Positions 46,470-52,953 of a DNA stretch of 64,000 nt are shown here, piece by piece. The stretch's first letter is position 1, and every line of letters starts with the position of its first letter. A model generated the notes under the pieces. The model was not told the DNA's origin, did no database searches, and saw only the letters and a program-made list of their open reading frames with translations. Both the position numbers and the translations under genes were made by a program. Origin of the DNA: a virus (Duplodnaviria > Caudoviricetes). Location of the stretch: the IMG/VR virus record IMGVR_UViG_3300016476_000292, positions 3,063 through 67,062 of that record. One strand, written 5' to 3'.

Positions 46470-46672
46470 GGCTTCACCCTTGCGAGGATAGCGGCGCTCA
46501 CATCATTCTCAGGCATCTTCAAAATCCATGCAGCCAGTTCCGCGCAGGCTTCGCGCTCGGCAAGCACGGCCTCCCTGATCTGATCTTGGATTGAATCTCG
46601 GATGGCCTCGTCCCATGTTTGCTGGACAGAATCCCGCCATTCTTCTGCTGTCAGTATCTTGTTTGCCATCAT
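46466..46672 (-). CDS. Hypothetical protein (AEREACA motif)
   Basis: 68 aa. Confidence 0.5.
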   Translation of the reverse strand: MMANKILTAEEWRDSVQQTWDEAIRDSIQDQIREAVLAEREACAELAAWILKMPENDVSAAILARVKP

Positions 46673-48153
46673 CTTCTCCCTATCTTCTTCAAAAACGCAT
46701 GTAGTTTTTTGTCCATGAACTTTTTTGTCTCTGCCGTGGGGGCTTCCGGCTGCGTGTCGATCAGACCTCTCGGCCAGACTCCAAACTTATCCTTGTAGGT
46801 ATGCGCTGCCCTGCCCTTGCTCCAGCCTTGGTAACGCTGCATCCAGACCATCTGATTCCAGAATGCCTGCTTGCTCTCGCGGCTGACGGTGCCACTGAGC
46901 TCAACCATCTCGCCTTCCACCGCGATGACTTTGTTCTTGCGCTCACGAACGTGGCCGCAGTTGTAGCAAGTATCAGAGTGCGATGGCCAGAGAGCCGAGC
47001 AAGACGGGCATTTGGCTGCCTCCTTTTCCTTCTGCGTGGGTTCTTTCTTGGCCTTCTCTTTGCCTTCGTCCAGCTTGTCTACGCCCTGCTCGTACAACTC
47101 TTCCCAGTCCTCACGAAATCGGATGTAGTTACCTGAATGGCAAATCCAAAGCGCGAAGGGTTTGGCTTCTGGATTGGATTGATTGCTACGCATGACCCTG
47201 CCCATCTGCTGAACATGGCTTGAAAATGATTTGCTAAATGGTCTAGCCGATACTCCTATACTAACCAGTTCATTATCAAACCCCTTGGTCAGAAGGTCAG
47301 TTGCGATAAGTCCTATGATTTTGCTATCAGGTTTTGCAAAGTCTTCAATTACTTGCCGCTTCCATTCATCATCGTCTCTGTAGCTCAGGCTGACAAAGTT
47401 ATATCCTTGCTCTTGGAACTTCTGGGAAAGGTGCGCTCCGTGATCTACGCCAGCAGCAAACACAATAGTCTTGCGTGGCTCACCAAATATTTCATGGGTT
47501 TTTTTAATCCATTCTGTGACAACATCCCCGGTAATTTTCATGCCACGGCCCGATGCTTCTGCCTGCGACCACTCTCCGGCAACTTTCTTTGCGCCAGTCA
47601 TGTCTATTTCTTTGGCAATGAACACACGCAAGGGAACCAATGATCCTTGATCAACAAGTTGCTTGGTAGTTATCGGAGAAACTACGTTGGAATAAACATT
47701 TGCCAGCCCTTTTGTAAAAGGCGACGCCGACAAGCCAACCACCCTAACTTCCGGGTTGTTCTTGATGAACTCGATAGTCTGCTTCCTTTGAGCATGGCAT
47801 TCATCAATAACAAGTAGGTCGAGACCTGGAAAGCTGCCACGCTTTTCCAATGTTTGGGCAGAACAAACCTGTATTGGTTCATACGGGCGATATCGCCAGT
47901 GACCAGCCTGTAAAACGCCGTGGTCTATCTTGTACTTCTCAAGTCTTCGGGATGTTTGATCGCACAGAATGATGCGATCTAGGATCATTGCCGCTTTGCT
48001 GCCTTTTTTCTTTGCGGCATCAAGCATGGCTATTGCAGCCTCTGTTTTCCCGGCTCCTGTCCCCATGTAAAGCAACTGGGATCTGTGGCCCTTGGCAAAT
48101 CCTTCTCTCAGGAGGGCGAGAGCTTCCTCCTGATACTGCCGTAATTGCAGCAT
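46669..48153 (-). CDS. SF2 DNA helicase with C-terminal zinc finger
   Basis: MGTGAGKT (motif I), IDECH (II), GLSASP (III), QQMGRVMR (VI), CPSC...CYNC. Confidence 0.9.
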   Translation of the reverse strand: MLQLRQYQEEALALLREGFAKGHRSQLLYMGTGAGKTEAAIAMLDAAKKKGSKAAMILDRIILCDQTSRRLEKYKIDHGVLQAGHWRYRPYEPIQVCSAQTLEKRGSFPGLDLLVIDECHAQRKQTIEFIKNNPEVRVVGLSASPFTKGLANVYSNVVSPITTKQLVDQGSLVPLRVFIAKEIDMTGAKKVAGEWSQAEASGRGMKITGDVVTEWIKKTHEIFGEPRKTIVFAAGVDHGAHLSQKFQEQGYNFVSLSYRDDDEWKRQVIEDFAKPDSKIIGLIATDLLTKGFDNELVSIGVSARPFSKSFSSHVQQMGRVMRSNQSNPEAKPFALWICHSGNYIRFREDWEELYEQGVDKLDEGKEKAKKEPTQKEKEAAKCPSCSALWPSHSDTCYNCGHVRERKNKVIAVEGEMVELSGTVSRESKQAFWNQMVWMQRYQGWSKGRAAHTYKDKFGVWPRGLIDTQPEAPTAETKKFMDKKLHAFLKKIGRR

Positions 48154-48199: not shown

Positions 48200-49012
48200 T
48201 TAATTGCCTTCGAGCTTTTTCAACTTCTTCTGCAACATCTGCACTTGCTTCATCAGCTGCGCGTTCTCTGCTTGGAACTGATCACGCGAACTTGTGACGG
48301 CCTTCAATTCTATCTCCAACAAACGAATCTGAGCACGCAAATCCTTAATGATTGACTGGGCTTTTTCCTTCTCAATGTCATCCGTGCTTGCCGCCATTGC
48401 AACTGTTAGCTGATCTTGCAAGTCTTCATTCTCTTCTCGCAACTTCTGTACTGCTGCCGTCATTTCCTCGCGTTCGACTTCTGCCTCGGTAAAAATGGCA
48501 ACAGGATCTTCTTCCTGCTTCGGCTTCTCCTGCCGGGTGGTAATTTTTCCACCTTGCTTGAACGTAGTTTCTGTTTTCTCTGCGCCCATCTCTTTGCGTA
48601 TGGCTGCCACGAATGGATGGCTGACACAGCACTGGCGGGCGATCTCACGATCAGACCAGTCTTGCCATTCAATATCTGACAACATAGCCATGACTGCTTT
48701 GCGCTTGTCTGCTGGCGTGCGACGCAGGCCGTGGTCAGCGTTGGCTCCGAAGCTGTACAGAATTGCATCCCGCAACGTGCCTTCGCGTACATCACACTTG
48801 ATACCAGGGCTGCCGGCTTTCTTGGCAGCGAAGTATCTGTGGAAACCATCGGCCAGAAAATACTCTGCGCCGTCGTGGAATACGATGATGGCCGGGAACT
48901 TCGCACCATCCCGCATGTTGTCTGCATACTCAGCGACCACATCCTGATCGATCTTCGCGCGGCTCTGTGTACCGCCGTCAATTTTTATTTTGTCAAGACT
49001 CAGATTCATCAT
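48200..49012 (-). CDS. ParB/Srx-domain protein with HTH and C-terminal coiled coil
   Basis: TQSRAKID...FPAIIVF...LADGFHRYFAA; WSDREIARQCCVSHPFVAAIRK. Confidence 0.8.
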   Translation of the reverse strand: MMNLSLDKIKIDGGTQSRAKIDQDVVAEYADNMRDGAKFPAIIVFHDGAEYFLADGFHRYFAAKKAGSPGIKCDVREGTLRDAILYSFGANADHGLRRTPADKRKAVMAMLSDIEWQDWSDREIARQCCVSHPFVAAIRKEMGAEKTETTFKQGGKITTRQEKPKQEEDPVAIFTEAEVEREEMTAAVQKLREENEDLQDQLTVAMAASTDDIEKEKAQSIIKDLRAQIRLLEIELKAVTSSRDQFQAENAQLMKQVQMLQKKLKKLEGN

Positions 49013-49978: not shown

Positions 49979-51094
49979 CTATATCAAAAGGTATCGATAG
50001 ACAGGATTGCTGAGGCTGTAGTTCTCTGTCTCGCACCTGCTCCACTGTGCCGCGTTGACGATGTTGGCTGACGGGCAAGACATGTTTTCCTTGGCCTCGA
50101 CCATTTTCAGGTAATTGTTGATGATGGGCAGACAGCTGACTTTGCGGCCGGGCTGGTGATGATAGCCGCCCTCGACATGATCGCCGCCGTTGATGGCGTA
50201 CCCATCCAAGTTGCACACATCCTCGGCCAACTCTGCATCATCTGACAGCACGATCCGCGAGCTGCACCTGCGTGCCATCCAGCGCAGTTCCTTGAACCAC
50301 ATCTCACGCGGGGGTCGGATGGTCTCTGTCTGCAGCTTGTCCCCACCGCGCACGAACATCACGCCTGCTTCTTCCATGCCGTCGACCGTGCCGATTTGGT
50401 ATAGGTCTTTCATAACGTAGTCGTACGCCCGGCACTTTGCATCTGCAAGGTATAACGCGGTCAAATCCGTTGGCTGTAGCCATACCTTGCGGAAGGCATC
50501 AAAGCTCATCTGCGGGACACCGCTGCCGTACTGGAATGCCTCCGGGAATATCTCGTCGAATGGTTCTTCGTAGTTCCACCAGTTGCCTGACAGATCGACA
50601 TAGAAGTCATGACCGTCCATCTCGGCCACTGTCTGGGCGGCGATGATGTTCTCGATTACGGAGAAGAACCCGCTGCTGCGTGGCTGGTAGTACACAGGGC
50701 TACCGGCACCCAGCGATCCCTTGTGCATCTCTGTGTCCAGGCCTTGGAATAATTGCCACTTGTCTTCGCTGATGCCCCACTCTCTGGCCGCCCGCTCGAA
50801 GCCCACGCAGCCGGTGATCTCTTGCTTGTAGAAGAAGGTGGCCGGTAGTTCTCGCGGGAGCATAGGCTGGATGTCAGCCCACGCACACTTGCCCCAGAAG
50901 AACAACCTGGCAGCGACCGCAGGCAGGCGTTCGTTCAGCGGGTAGCTTTGTGCCAGCGAGCGCAGCAAGTCCATGCTGTTGTGCATGTAGTAAATGTTGT
51001 CCATCTCGTGGACGATGGCGTTGACCAGCGCGATGAACTTGACGTGGAAGTCTGGAGTTTCATCCACAAGTCTGTATCTATTGAACTGAATCAA
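49979..51094 (-). CDS. Putative GT-B glycosyltransferase (NodZ/FUT8, GT23-like)
   Basis: SSGFFS; GVMFVRGGDK (cf. motif I HxRxxDK); IVLSDD (motif II); MSCPSANIV (motif III-like). Confidence 0.5.
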   Translation of the reverse strand: MIQFNRYRLVDETPDFHVKFIALVNAIVHEMDNIYYMHNSMDLLRSLAQSYPLNERLPAVAARLFFWGKCAWADIQPMLPRELPATFFYKQEITGCVGFERAAREWGISEDKWQLFQGLDTEMHKGSLGAGSPVYYQPRSSGFFSVIENIIAAQTVAEMDGHDFYVDLSGNWWNYEEPFDEIFPEAFQYGSGVPQMSFDAFRKVWLQPTDLTALYLADAKCRAYDYVMKDLYQIGTVDGMEEAGVMFVRGGDKLQTETIRPPREMWFKELRWMARRCSSRIVLSDDAELAEDVCNLDGYAINGGDHVEGGYHHQPGRKVSCLPIINNYLKMVEAKENMSCPSANIVNAAQWSRCETENYSLSNPVYRYLLI

Positions 51095-51110: not shown

Positions 51111-51170
51111 AATCCATACCAAGCCGCGCCAGACCCGACCTAAACGTGCCCTTGCAAACCTCTCCCTACC
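51111..51170 (-). ncRNA. GGY-NN pentamer tract A (12 units), downstream of the Cas7-like gene
   Basis: GGTAG GGAGA GGTTT GCAAG GGCAC GTTTA GGTCG GGTCT GGCGC GGCTT GGTAT GGATT. Confidence 0.8.
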
Positions 51171-51780
51171 CCTGAGAAACATCAAACTTCACAACATTGA
51201 ATCGTCCGAACGTGGGGCGGAAGTCGCCGATACCCACCAGCCTGCCTGCCATGGACAGCGTGTCTTGCAGCCAATGGCGGTCGATATACTCCGGCGTCAG
51301 AATCATCAGATCAAAGTCCAGCCGGTAGCCTGCCTTCATTGCCGGACGCACACGGTTGACGCCTGCTCGCTGGATGACCACGCGACGCTTGTCCTCGTAG
51401 TCCCATTTTTCTTTGCCGAAGGTGGAAAGATTGGTAAGGCTGACCACGCCCGCCTTGGTTAGATCCATAGCTGACTTGCGGGGGCTGCGGGGATCCTGCT
51501 TGAACTTGGCTGCCATGATGATGGACTGACGTAGGTACTCGCCTGGGCAGCACAGCTCGCCGTCCTCGTTGCGCCAGACGTAGGACTCGATGTCATCTGT
51601 CTTCTTGGCTGCGGAATTCTTGGCCGCTTTGGCCTTGGTTTCTACGGCCTCGCAGTTCCAGCGATGGAACAGGAAGTCTGCGCTGCCCTCAATGGTGATG
51701 TGCGCCGTGTACGGGATGCTGTACTCGATTGCTTCTGCGCCGCCGTTGGTTACTTCTGATACTTGTTTTGCCTTTGCCAT
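51166..51780 (-). CDS. Solitary Cas7-like RAMP (RRM-fold) protein, 204 aa
   Basis: beta1 AHITIEGSADFLFHR; LCCPGEYLRQSIIMAA (Cas7 xPGxxLK/R helix); C-terminal Gly-rich loop AGRLVGIGDFRPTFGRF; AGGAG 7 nt before ATG 51780. Confidence 0.75.
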   Translation of the reverse strand: MAKAKQVSEVTNGGAEAIEYSIPYTAHITIEGSADFLFHRWNCEAVETKAKAAKNSAAKKTDDIESYVWRNEDGELCCPGEYLRQSIIMAAKFKQDPRSPRKSAMDLTKAGVVSLTNLSTFGKEKWDYEDKRRVVIQRAGVNRVRPAMKAGYRLDFDLMILTPEYIDRHWLQDTLSMAGRLVGIGDFRPTFGRFNVVKFDVSQG

Positions 51781-51801: not shown

Positions 51802-51861
51802 AACCCTCACCACACCGAACCGCAGCTTGCCCCGCCGTGACTTACCACGCCGTGCCCGACC
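51802..51861 (-). ncRNA. GGY-NN pentamer tract B (12 units), preceded by a GATGC-GTAA-GCATC hairpin (51866-51879)
   Basis: GGTCG GGCAC GGCGT GGTAA GTCAC GGCGG GGCAA GCTGC GGTTC GGTGT GGTGA GGGTT, then a T run. Confidence 0.8.
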
Positions 51862-51919
51862 GCTAGATGCTTACGCATCGCACAGAAGCCTCTATAAAGC
51901 CCCTGTACGCTGCACAGCA

Positions 51920-51979
51920 GCTCCTCATCAGACCCAAACTCACCATGCCCAACCTAACCCAGCCGAACCGGGTCTTGCC
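51920..51979 (-). ncRNA. GGY-NN pentamer tract C (12 units), preceded by a long GCAA-loop hairpin (51987-52018)
   Basis: GGCAA GACCC GGTTC GGCTG GGTTA GGTTG GGCAT GGTGA GTTTG GGTCT GATGA GGAGC. Confidence 0.8.
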
Positions 51980-52027
51980 TTATTACCGGAAGGAGGACTT
52001 TTGCAAATCCCCTATCCGCTGATAGAC

Positions 52028-52107
52028 AGCCCATACCCATCCTTAGCGTGCCTTGCCGAGCCGGAACATTCCATGCCCTGCCTAGCCAATCCATTGCCTG
52101 CCCTGCC
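52028..52107 (-). ncRNA. GGY-NN pentamer tract D (16 units)
   Basis: GGCAG GGCAG GCAAT GGATT GGCTA GGCAG GGCAT GGAAT GTTCC GGCTC GGCAA GGCAC GCTAA GGATG GGTAT GGGCT. Confidence 0.8.
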
Positions 52108-52113
52108 GCATTT

Positions 52114-52320
52114 TTATTTTCCAAGTATGGCAGTGGCTATCGCCTCTGCCGGGTTGTCCTGCCAGTCCCTGTGCTGGTGGCAAATCATAGCCGCACGCTC
52201 GCGCTCGGCCTCGCTGATAAACACAGCCAGCCGCTCTATCTCCGGCATGAAGTCCCGGAAGATCCCCCAGTCCTCCCCGCCAGCCCGACGTGCCAATTGA
52301 AATAAGTCTGCTTGGTTCAT
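52114..52320 (-). CDS. Hypothetical protein (EAERERAA motif)
   Basis: 68 aa, AGGAGG RBS, first gene after the tandem promoters. Confidence 0.55.
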   Translation of the reverse strand: MNQADLFQLARRAGGEDWGIFRDFMPEIERLAVFISEAERERAAMICHQHRDWQDNPAEAIATAILGK

Positions 52321-52344: not shown

Positions 52345-52390
52345 ACTGTACCCCTACATCTAGGATATGTCAACACATGGTTCCTGTCAA
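52345..52390 (-). promoter_or_regulatory. Two overlapping sigma70-type promoters
   Basis: TTGACA(52390-85)-17-TATCCT and TTGACA(52373-68)-17-TACAGT. Confidence 0.7.
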
Positions 52391-52422: not shown

Positions 52423-52953
52423 CTACGATCTCCAGTCCGACTGATCCCAGTTGCCTTTGCCGTGGTTGCATTCATGGCACAGGATCTGAAGGTTAGACAG
52501 CTCCAGCGCCAGTTCTGGGAATAGCTTGCGCGGTTTGATGTGATCCACATTCATGACCGCCCCAGTGGCCGGCGTAGCACCGCAGCACATGCACTTCGGC
52601 CCGTACTTCTTCAAAGCTTCCATGCGTACCTTGCGCCATTCGTAGGTGCTGAGAAAAGAATCTCCTGCCACAAATGCCAGCGTTTTGGGATTGCTCTGCT
52701 TTTTCTTTGGCTTAGGTTTTGGTGGGGGTTGATAAGGCTTTGAGTCCACATGCAGTCGCGCCTCCGCTGCTATGTGTTCTATATTTTTTTCCACCCACGC
52801 TTTTGGTTTGTAGCTTCCTGGTTTTGGATAGCCATCCATGGCCAAGACCTTGCAACCCAAGTCATACGGACTTACGCCATTCTTTGCGCCGTATCCCAGC
52901 TTGCGCTTGATGTACCGAGACAGCATTGCCATCCCAATTTTTGCCGCTCCCAT
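52423..52953 (-). CDS. HNH endonuclease
   Basis: KCMCCG...MNVDHIKPRKLFPELALELSNLQILCHECNHGK. Confidence 0.85.
   Translation of the reverse strand: MGAAKIGMAMLSRYIKRKLGYGAKNGVSPYDLGCKVLAMDGYPKPGSYKPKAWVEKNIEHIAAEARLHVDSKPYQPPPKPKPKKKQSNPKTLAFVAGDSFLSTYEWRKVRMEALKKYGPKCMCCGATPATGAVMNVDHIKPRKLFPELALELSNLQILCHECNHGKGNWDQSDWRS

What the first reader, a model, noticed from the sequence alone, without database searches (positions are those of the whole stretch)
51802..52107. Each array carries a distinct NN string, decodable as a gapped target
Seen, NN strings 5'->3'. D: AG AG AT TT TA AG AT AT CC TC AA AC AA TG AT CT. C: AA CC TC TG TA TG AT GA TG CT GA GC. B: CG AC GT AA AC GG AA GC TC GT GA TT. 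A: AG GA TT AG AC TA CG CT GC TT AT TT. The strings are unrelated to each other, which argues against simple tandem-repeat expansion and for information content like spacers. Inference: if pairing skips one base per unit (NNx), a 12-unit array specifies 24 bases over 36 bp and could ignore codon wobble positions, so synonymous escape would fail.
Basis: partly seen in the sequence, partly recalled or inferred. Interest (0 to 1): 0.75.

Follow-up and report, generated by a model that had tools for sequence, protein, structure and literature searches.

The report
Phage VIPR guide-RNA arrays

Summary
Four arrays of period-5 GGY-NN units lie on the minus strand. D (16 units), C (12) and B (12) fall inside the stated range. 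A (12) lies outside it, at 51111-51170.

The arrays flank a 204-aa gene (51166-51780, minus). Its family profile matches the solved SUSP1 Vipr protein (PDB 36pp, E 6e-18). Its model has a Cas7/Csm3 fold and keeps the GGY-binding residues. This is therefore a VIPR locus as described in bioRxiv 10.64898/2026.04.26.720920, .720927 and 10.64898/2026.10.15.759431. In that system Vipr polymerises on the vrRNA, hides each GGY and presents each NN. The NN bases pair with DNA while skipping every third base, usually the codon wobble position.

I re-derived the rule in this clade. Guides from related phages gave 73 hits of at least 20/24 at one skipped base, against 3, 2 and 6 at zero, two and three.

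For the window's own four guides I found no target. I searched its genome, about 2.6 Mb of related phage DNA, and exact scans of IMG/VR, genome and metagenome collections.

Verdict: a new member of a known kind. The scan has already found VIPR loci in at least 20 other genomes.

The parts
52345..52390 (-). Two overlapping sigma-70-like promoter matches upstream of the small ORF and the arrays; likely start of the operon (inferred)
   Evidence: two matches of 10/12, against 0.8 expected from shuffles. No terminator-like site on the minus strand between here and the vipr gene.
52114..52320 (-). 68-aa ORF of unknown function, immediately upstream of array D
   Evidence: ORF; no Pfam or PHROG family; relatives only in the two closest loci, L002 and L003.
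52028..52107 (-). vrRNA repeat tract D: 16 GGY-NN units (13 with GG)
   Evidence: The length fits the published 9-16 repeats.
51980..52027 (-). 3' extension (tail) of D with two predicted hairpins
   Evidence: centroid fold keeps the second hairpin. A similar stretch is present in L002. Covariation not tested.
51920..51979 (-). vrRNA repeat tract C: 12 units (9 with GG)
51862..51919 (-). Conserved structured 3' tail of C
   Evidence: found after 18 arrays in close relatives; consensus hairpin of 19 pairs, 8 of them with compensatory changes.
51802..51861 (-). vrRNA repeat tract B: 12 units (10 with GG). No hairpin tail; it runs into a U-run and the vipr ribosome-binding site
   Evidence: The same position and junction are kept in the close relatives; the NN string is largely shared with L003 only.
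51166..51780 (-). vipr gene: 204-aa RAMP (Cas7-like) protein that coats the vrRNA
   Evidence: PDB 36pp SUSP1 Vipr, E 6.1e-18. (pairwise E 1.6e-5). (AF2 pLDDT 94). (Foldseek: Cas7 of type VII, Csm3). (phrog_4652, unannotated). (more than 6,000 close relatives; 953 clusters at 50% identity).
51111..51170 (-). vrRNA repeat tract A: 12 units (10 with GG). It starts on the vipr stop codon and ends about 6 nt before the ribosome-binding site of the next ORF; no hairpin tail
   Evidence: An array at this position occurs in most close relatives.
49979..51094 (-). 371-aa ORF downstream of array A, in the place where a vap accessory gene would be expected; not shown to be one
   Evidence: no family; relatives only in L002 and L003. 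Atlas scores of 0.86 only, a lead and not evidence.
46669..48153 (-). SF2 (ResIII/DEAD) helicase, a conserved same-strand downstream neighbour of vipr in this clade; either an accessory gene or simply the phage's replication helicase
   Evidence: phrog_16, PF04851, PF00271; found 0.5-2.2 kb downstream of vipr in 33 of 81 loci.

Best explanation
The region is the guide-RNA part of a VIPR (Viral Interference Programmable Repeat) locus of a 67-kb phage.

Proposed course of events:
1. An operon is read on the minus strand, probably from the promoter-like site at 52345-52390. It carries a small ORF, three vrRNA repeat tracts (D, C, B), the vipr gene, a fourth tract (A) and a further ORF.
2. Vipr, a minimal Cas7-like RAMP, polymerises along each tract, one protomer per 5-nt unit.
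3. Two neighbouring protomers flip out and hold each GGY. This leaves each NN dinucleotide exposed.
4. The exposed NN bases pair with a DNA strand in which every third base is skipped. A 12-unit guide thus reads 24 bases over 35 bp, and the 16-unit guide reads 32 over 47 bp.
5. Binding silences transcription of the target, typically a gene of a rival phage or satellite. The skipped base usually sits on the codon wobble position, so synonymous mutations do not allow escape.

Shown here:
- the anatomy of the arrays;
- homology of the protein to SUSP1 Vipr, its fold and its conserved contact residues;
- the covarying tail after C;
- absence of self-targets;
- operation of the one-skip rule for guides of related phages.

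Inferred from the published SUSP1 and P. fulva work:
- filament assembly, DNA binding and silencing by this particular system;
- that its four strings have real targets.
For: Protein:
- The profile of 73 family members hits PDB 36pp 'SUSP1 Vipr protein' at E 6.1e-18 over residues 5-189. The single sequence hits at E 1.6e-5.
- The AF2 model has pLDDT 94 and pTM 0.87.
- The best Foldseek matches are Cas7 of type VII and Csm3 of type III complexes, E 6e-8 and below, probability 1.0.
- The SUSP1 residues that hold GGY are H17, R138, D177, W178 and R179 (paper). They align with H39, R145, D186, F187 and R188 here. R145, D186 and R188 are at least 90% conserved in the family.

RNA:
- There are four tracts of 12-16 units on the gene's strand.
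- In 76 of 81 loci holding a homologue, such tracts flank it (almost all on its strand).
- Unit composition is GGY followed by two unconstrained bases.
- The tail after C is conserved, with 8 covarying pairs.

Code:
- No self-target exists at skip 0-2 in the 67-kb genome, as published for other VIPRs.
- For guides of related loci against 1.5 Mb, hits of at least 20/24 number 73 at one skipped base, against 3, 2 and 6 at zero, two and three.
- Examples include a 22/22 match and 20 loci hit in the same helicase motif, with variation concentrated at the skipped base.
- The skipped base is on codon position 3 in 24 of 35 distinct strong hits.

Literature.
Against: No target was found for any of the four strings.
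- The best one-skip matches in about 2.6 Mb of related phage DNA stay within shuffled-guide nulls.
- The one hit above its null (C, 20/24 in L115) has its skipped bases off the wobble position and looks like chance.
- Twelve exact scans of large collections found nothing, while a positive control gave at least 120 hits.

Tracts B and A lack the structured 3' tail that the papers describe.

No conserved vap gene could be named. The 371-aa ORF occurs only in the two nearest relatives.

Identity to SUSP1 Vipr is low, and only the C-terminal third aligns pairwise.

Expression, processing and binding were not and cannot be tested here.
Confidence: 0.88

Rival explanations
1. The tracts are only cis-acting binding sites on the mRNA, in the manner of TRAP on its triplet repeats. 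The 204-aa protein coats them to control translation or stability of the operon, and the NN bases are meaningless spacers.
For: B and A end a few bases before ribosome-binding sites and have no hairpin tail. NN composition is close to uniform. No target was found for the four strings (and the exact scans).
Against: Guides of related loci match foreign genes far above the controls, and only at one skipped base. The homologous SUSP1 system is reprogrammable through NN alone (paper). C and D have tails like free-standing guide RNAs. Tract lengths of 8 to 143 units in relatives fit neither a closed ring nor a simple operator.
Confidence: 0.07
2. The tracts are a DNA-level or purely structural feature with no guide role: microsatellite-like expansion, a G-quadruplex-forming stretch, or an origin or primase site within the replication module.
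For: The locus sits among replication genes: helicase, ParB-like and HNH. GG every 5 nt could in principle form two-layer quadruplexes.
Against: Expansion of a unit would give related NN strings, but they are unrelated. Tandem Repeats Finder does not even report them as repeats. The strand is always that of vipr. The third position is constrained to pyrimidine, which a quadruplex does not need. The tracts travel with the Vipr gene across hundreds of otherwise different phages.
Confidence: 0.02

Closest known systems
Type II VIPR systems of Escherichia phage SUSP1 and a Pseudomonas fulva prophage (Vipr + vrRNAs + Vap1; bioRxiv 10.64898/2026.04.26.720920, 10.64898/2026.04.26.720927, 10.64898/2026.10.15.759431; PDB 36pp)
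   Same: A lone Cas7-like protein of about 200 aa with the same G-loop and thumb contact residues. GGY-NN tracts of 12-16 units on the gene's strand, both upstream and downstream of it. A structured tail after tracts C and D. Phage-borne. No self-targets. In this clade the one-skip rule finds targets in genes of related phages.
   Different: The protein is distant (profile E 6e-18; pairwise only the last 70 residues align), and W178 is replaced by F187. The tail is a long covarying hairpin, and the SUSP1-type pseudoknot was not tested for. Two of the four tracts have no tail and abut ribosome-binding sites. No Vap1-like gene was recognised; the conserved neighbour is an SF2 helicase. The VIPR type (I-VII) could not be assigned because the papers' tables are not held.
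Class 1 CRISPR-Cas backbone (Cas7 / Csm3 filaments on crRNA)
   Same: The RAMP fold. One protomer per repeat of the guide. A thumb that breaks the guide-target duplex periodically.
   Different: Period 5 with three guide bases hidden and two read, against period 6 with five read. No CRISPR repeat-spacer array was seen here, and no Rfam CRISPR repeat family matched. The system is carried by a phage.
TRAP (trp RNA-binding attenuation protein) on (G/U)AG repeats
   Same: A conserved triplet plus a 2-nt spacer, repeated about 11-12 times just upstream of a ribosome-binding site. This was my first working idea.
   Different: The protein fold is unrelated. Tract length in relatives varies continuously from 8 to 143 units, which fits a filament and not an 11-mer ring. 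The spacer bases carry target information in this clade.

Membership tests
VIPR system | Vipr protein homologous to the characterised Vipr proteins | tested here: met
   the family profile hits PDB 36pp_D 'SUSP1 Vipr protein' at E 6.1e-18, 68 bits, over nearly the whole length; pairwise E 1.6e-5.
VIPR system | Minimal RAMP fold (RRM core, G-loop, thumb) resembling Cas7 | tested here: met
   AF2 pLDDT 94; at least 150 PDB matches at E <= 0.001, and the best-ranked ones listed are Cas7 (type VII), Csm3/Cmr4 and Cas7-11, with TM about 0.55.
VIPR system | Residues that hold G1, G2 and Y3 of each repeat (SUSP1 H17, R138, D177, W178, R179) | tested here: met
   The alignments place H39, R145, D186, F187 and R188 at these positions. 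The W-to-F change keeps an aromatic ring. R145, D186 and R188 are at least 90% conserved in 73 relatives.
VIPR system | vrRNA tracts of alternating GGY/NN, 9-16 repeats, in the intergenic DNA flanking vipr | tested here: met
   tracts of 16, 12, 12 and 12 units on the vipr strand, three upstream and one downstream.
VIPR system | Conserved structured 3' tail after each repeat tract | tested here: inconclusive
   Met for C (8 covarying pairs). Plausible for D. Not met for B and A, which run straight into ribosome-binding sites.
VIPR system | Accessory vap gene next to vipr | tested here: inconclusive
   The 371-aa ORF downstream has no family and occurs only in L002 and L003. An SF2 helicase is the conserved neighbour in 33 of 81 loci, but it may simply be a replication gene.
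VIPR system | Natural targets matching NN under the 1-nt skip rule, none in the element itself | tested here: inconclusive
   No self-target. The rule works for guides of related loci. For the window's four guides no target rose above the null, and exact scans found none.
VIPR system | vrRNAs expressed, processed and bound by Vipr; the complex binds DNA and silences transcription | not testable with these tools
   Needs small-RNA sequencing, pull-down and reporter assays.
TRAP-like ring protein with triplet-repeat RNA site | Fixed number of repeats matching a closed ring, and a TRAP-fold protein | tested here: not met
   Tract lengths in 217 arrays run from 8 to 143 units with no preferred number. 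The protein has a RAMP fold.

The most novel reading that the evidence does not exclude
Tracts B and A have no hairpin tail and end 5-20 nt before the ribosome-binding sites of vipr and of the next ORF. They may serve a second purpose as cis-acting sensors. When Vipr is abundant, its filament on the leader would cover the ribosome-binding site and throttle translation of vipr and of the downstream gene. That would give the system a built-in dosage control, which the VIPR papers I searched do not mention: one search found no occurrence of 'autoregulat', 'ribosome binding' or 'Shine' in the third paper.
Probability: 0.2. Interest if true: 0.45.

Novelty: new member of a known kind. Interest (0 to 1): 0.3.

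Why it matters
VIPR is a newly described RNA-guided system with a gapped recognition code, proposed to be older than CRISPR.

This locus adds a distant, uncultured freshwater-type phage clade. The family has more than 6,000 close relatives of the protein, 953 clusters at 50% identity. It is unannotated in PHROGs, and in the one GenBank phage that has it the gene is labelled a helix-turn-helix regulator.

My control gives an independent re-derivation of the one-skip rule outside Enterobacteria and Pseudomonas. It also shows guides converging on a helicase motif shared by at least 120 viral contigs.

For the finding itself the value is confirmatory.

Tried and rejected
1. TRAP-like ring regulator. 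This was my first reading. I dropped it after seeing tract lengths of 8-143 units in relatives and the RAMP fold.

2. Hammerhead ribozyme between C and B. A short core-like motif at the end of C is not conserved in relatives, and Rfam gave no family at gathering scores.

3. Single-sequence AF2 gave a useless model (pLDDT 39). The alignment-based run was needed.

4. Literature searches by 'pentanucleotide repeats' and 'GGNNN' found nothing relevant. The link came from the PDB sequence search.

5. Targets for the four strings, all negative:
- own genome;
- 80 loci;
- 20 whole related phage records;
- 120 further loci;
- three patterns with up to 3 mismatches on 15 records and one on 5 records;
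- exact scans of IMG/VR (B units 1-12 and 3-11, A 2-11, C 2-11, D 1-10 and 7-16), of species genomes (C 2-12, B 1-11) and of metagenomes (D 5-16, C 2-11).

The collection scans accept only exact matches, so targets with internal mismatches would have been missed.

6. The C hit of 20/24 in L115 was rejected as chance. The skipped bases fall on codon position 1 of the only long open frame.

7. Assigning the VIPR type failed because no supplementary tables are held.

Full report
**What is in the sequence**

Read on the minus strand, the 305-bp gap between a 68-aa ORF (52114-52320) and a 204-aa gene (51166-51780) consists mostly of 5-nt units that begin with GG.

The tracts are as follows.
- Tract D covers 52107-52028 (16 units).
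- Tract C covers 51979-51920 (12 units).
- Tract B covers 51861-51802 (12 units).
- Tract A (12 units) lies at 51170-51111. It starts on the stop codon of the 204-aa gene and ends just before the ribosome-binding site of the next ORF, so it is outside the coordinates given.

42 of the 52 units carry GG; the other ten keep the register.

A period-5 GG count over ten units reaches 7-8 only inside these four tracts in the whole 64-kb window, and never on the plus strand. Tandem Repeats Finder does not report them, because only three of the five positions repeat.

The four NN strings are no more alike than shuffled strings.

**Surroundings**

All genes here are on the minus strand and belong to a phage replication module:
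- an HNH endonuclease (52423-52953);
- a ParB-like protein (48200-49012);
- an SF2 helicase (46669-48153).

The whole assembly is a single 67,062-bp virus record.

Two overlapping sigma-70-like promoter matches lie at 52345-52390. No terminator-like site lies on the minus strand before the 204-aa gene. Co-transcription of the small ORF, D, C, B, the gene and A is therefore likely, but it is inferred.

C is followed by a 58-nt element that recurs after 18 tracts in close relatives. It folds into a hairpin of 19 pairs, 8 of them with compensatory changes. D is followed by a different stretch with two predicted hairpins. B and A have no such tail. B runs through a U-run into the ribosome-binding site of the 204-aa gene, and this junction is conserved in the close relatives.

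**The protein**

The 204-aa protein has no Pfam family and matches only the unannotated phrog_4652.

It belongs to a large family: more than 6,000 close relatives in the 5.8-billion-protein collection and 953 clusters at 50% identity.

A profile of 73 members hits one solved structure, PDB 36pp 'SUSP1 Vipr protein', at E 6.1e-18 over almost its whole length. The single sequence hits it at E 1.6e-5.

An AlphaFold model built on the alignment is confident (pLDDT 94). Its best structural matches are the Cas7 subunits of type VII and the Csm3 subunits of type III CRISPR complexes.

**The link to the literature**

The PDB name led to three 2026 preprints.

The first (10.64898/2026.04.26.720920) describes VIPR systems.
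- They consist of a phage-borne minimal RAMP protein (Vipr), usually an accessory gene (vap), and vrRNAs.
- Each vrRNA is made of 9-16 GGY/NN repeats followed by a structured tail.
- The NN bases pair with DNA in which one base is skipped per unit.
- The skipped base mostly falls on codon wobble positions.
- The system silences rival phages and satellites.

The second (10.64898/2026.04.26.720927) gives the structures. There is one Vipr protomer per repeat. H17 and D177 hold G1, R138 and W178 hold G2, and R179 with neighbouring residues holds Y3. The NN bases are exposed.

The third (10.64898/2026.10.15.759431) shows that the codon-periodic reading prevents escape by synonymous mutation.

In the alignments these contact residues correspond to H39, R145, D186, F187 and R188 of the window's protein. 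R145, D186 and R188 are at least 90% conserved in the family.

The finding's inference is therefore the published mechanism, point for point.

**Co-occurrence in relatives**

In 76 of 81 loci that encode a homologue (one GenBank phage, DSL-LC04, and 80 IMG/VR contigs), period-5 GG tracts flank the gene, almost all on its strand.

Over 217 distinct tracts the unit is G 94%, G 88%, pyrimidine 90%, then two nearly uniform positions.

In the tract that sits just before vipr in the close relatives (Vipr at least 82% identical), pairwise identity is 67-73% at the two G positions. It is 35-37% at the NN positions. One row of that comparison is out of register, which lowers the first figure.

**Testing the gapped code myself**

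The four strings have no match in the phage's own genome at skip 0, 1 or 2 beyond shuffled strings. The perfect matches at skip 3 are the tracts themselves. This agrees with the published absence of self-targeting.

I then took all tracts of the related loci as guides and all fetched DNA (1.5 Mb) as targets, using exact 6-unit seeds and scoring the best 12-unit window. Hits of at least 20/24 number 73 with one skipped base, against 3, 2 and 6 with zero, two and three (first version).

The strong hits come from six tracts and 26 target loci. Examples:
- A tract of L050 matches L035 at 22/22.
- A tract of L049 matches L073 at 23/24.
- Tracts of L070 and L081 hit the same helicase motif (peptide NVLTTGFD) in about 20 loci, with the differences among targets concentrated at the skipped base.

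By a longest-open-frame test the skipped base is codon position 3 in 24 of 35 distinct strong hits.

An 18-base pattern from tract B found none.

**Targets of the window's own guides**

None was found.

Local scans allowing any number of mismatches stayed within the shuffled-guide nulls. They covered:
- the 80 loci;
- 20 complete or near-complete related phage records, 1.0 Mb;
- 120 further loci, 1.1 Mb.

The single value above its null (C, 20/24 in L115) has its skipped bases on codon position 1 of the only long frame, and I regard it as chance.

Exact one-skip scans were all empty:
- IMG/VR: B units 1-12 and 3-11, A 2-11, C 2-11, D 1-10 and 7-16;
- the species-genome collection: C 2-12, B 1-11;
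- the metagenome collection: D 5-16, C 2-11.

The scans cannot tolerate internal mismatches, whereas natural targets in this clade typically show 1-3. A true target may therefore have been missed, or may not be in these collections. The window's genome is also not hit by any guide of the related loci.

**What remains open**

- The VIPR type could not be assigned, because the papers' tables are not held.
- No vap gene could be named. The 371-aa ORF after tract A occurs only in the two nearest relatives, and its Atlas neighbours score 0.86, below the level that means anything.
- The conserved same-strand neighbour of vipr in this clade is an SF2 helicase, present in 33 of 81 loci. It may be an accessory gene of the helicase-bearing VIPR types or simply the replication helicase.
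- Tracts B and A lack tails and abut ribosome-binding sites. This suggests, but does not show, that Vipr binding to the leader also regulates translation of vipr and of the next ORF.

**Verdict**

The element is a new member of a known kind. It is known only since April 2026, and this scan has already met it in at least 20 other genomes.

Interest is modest: it is confirmatory, with a useful independent check of the code and an open question about the tail-less tracts.

Noticed in passing
L056:3593-4307; L045:3901-4570: Related loci carry uninterrupted GGY-NN tracts of 143 and 134 units (715 and 670 nt). This is far longer than the 9-16 repeats of single vrRNAs. They are probably the 'staggered arrays' mentioned in the first VIPR paper, but where the individual guides begin and end is not visible in the sequence.
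   Followed up: partly
L046:2825-4200: Six tracts of 16-57 units are separated by a recurring structured spacer of about 85-90 nt, a layout like an inverted CRISPR array (conserved spacer, variable repeats). I did not test whether the spacer is a ribozyme, as in the published hammerhead-interspersed arrays.
   Followed up: no
L070:2735-2794 and L081:3354-3448; targets e.g. L044:6392-6432: Guides of two different phages converge on the same conserved SF2 helicase motif (peptide NVLTTGFD) of related VIPR-bearing phages. The first nine units of one guide match at least 120 IMG/VR contigs exactly under the one-skip rule.
   Followed up: partly
L001:3976-4593 (GenBank OR003939, phage DSL-LC04): The only cultured-phage homologue of this Vipr (71% identical) is annotated 'helix-turn-helix transcriptional regulator'. 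Its 320-bp upstream gap holds three GGY-NN tracts. The annotation is almost certainly wrong.
   Followed up: partly
window 49979-51094 (-): A 371-aa ORF with a TTG start after tract A. It has no family and is found only in the two nearest relatives. Its Atlas feature neighbours (score 0.86, a lead only) include fucosyltransferase-like clusters, and the same phage carries a glycosyltransferase cluster near the window's end.
   Followed up: partly
window 52423-52953 (-): An HNH endonuclease gene lies directly upstream of the VIPR operon. It is shared with only L002 and L068 among the 81 loci, so it is probably a mobile insertion and not part of the system.
   Followed up: partly
L015:5921-6049: A G-rich low-complexity run at a contig end scores as a tract in all five registers and produces spurious one-skip and two-skip 'targets'. 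Period-5 GG callers need a complexity filter.
   Followed up: yes
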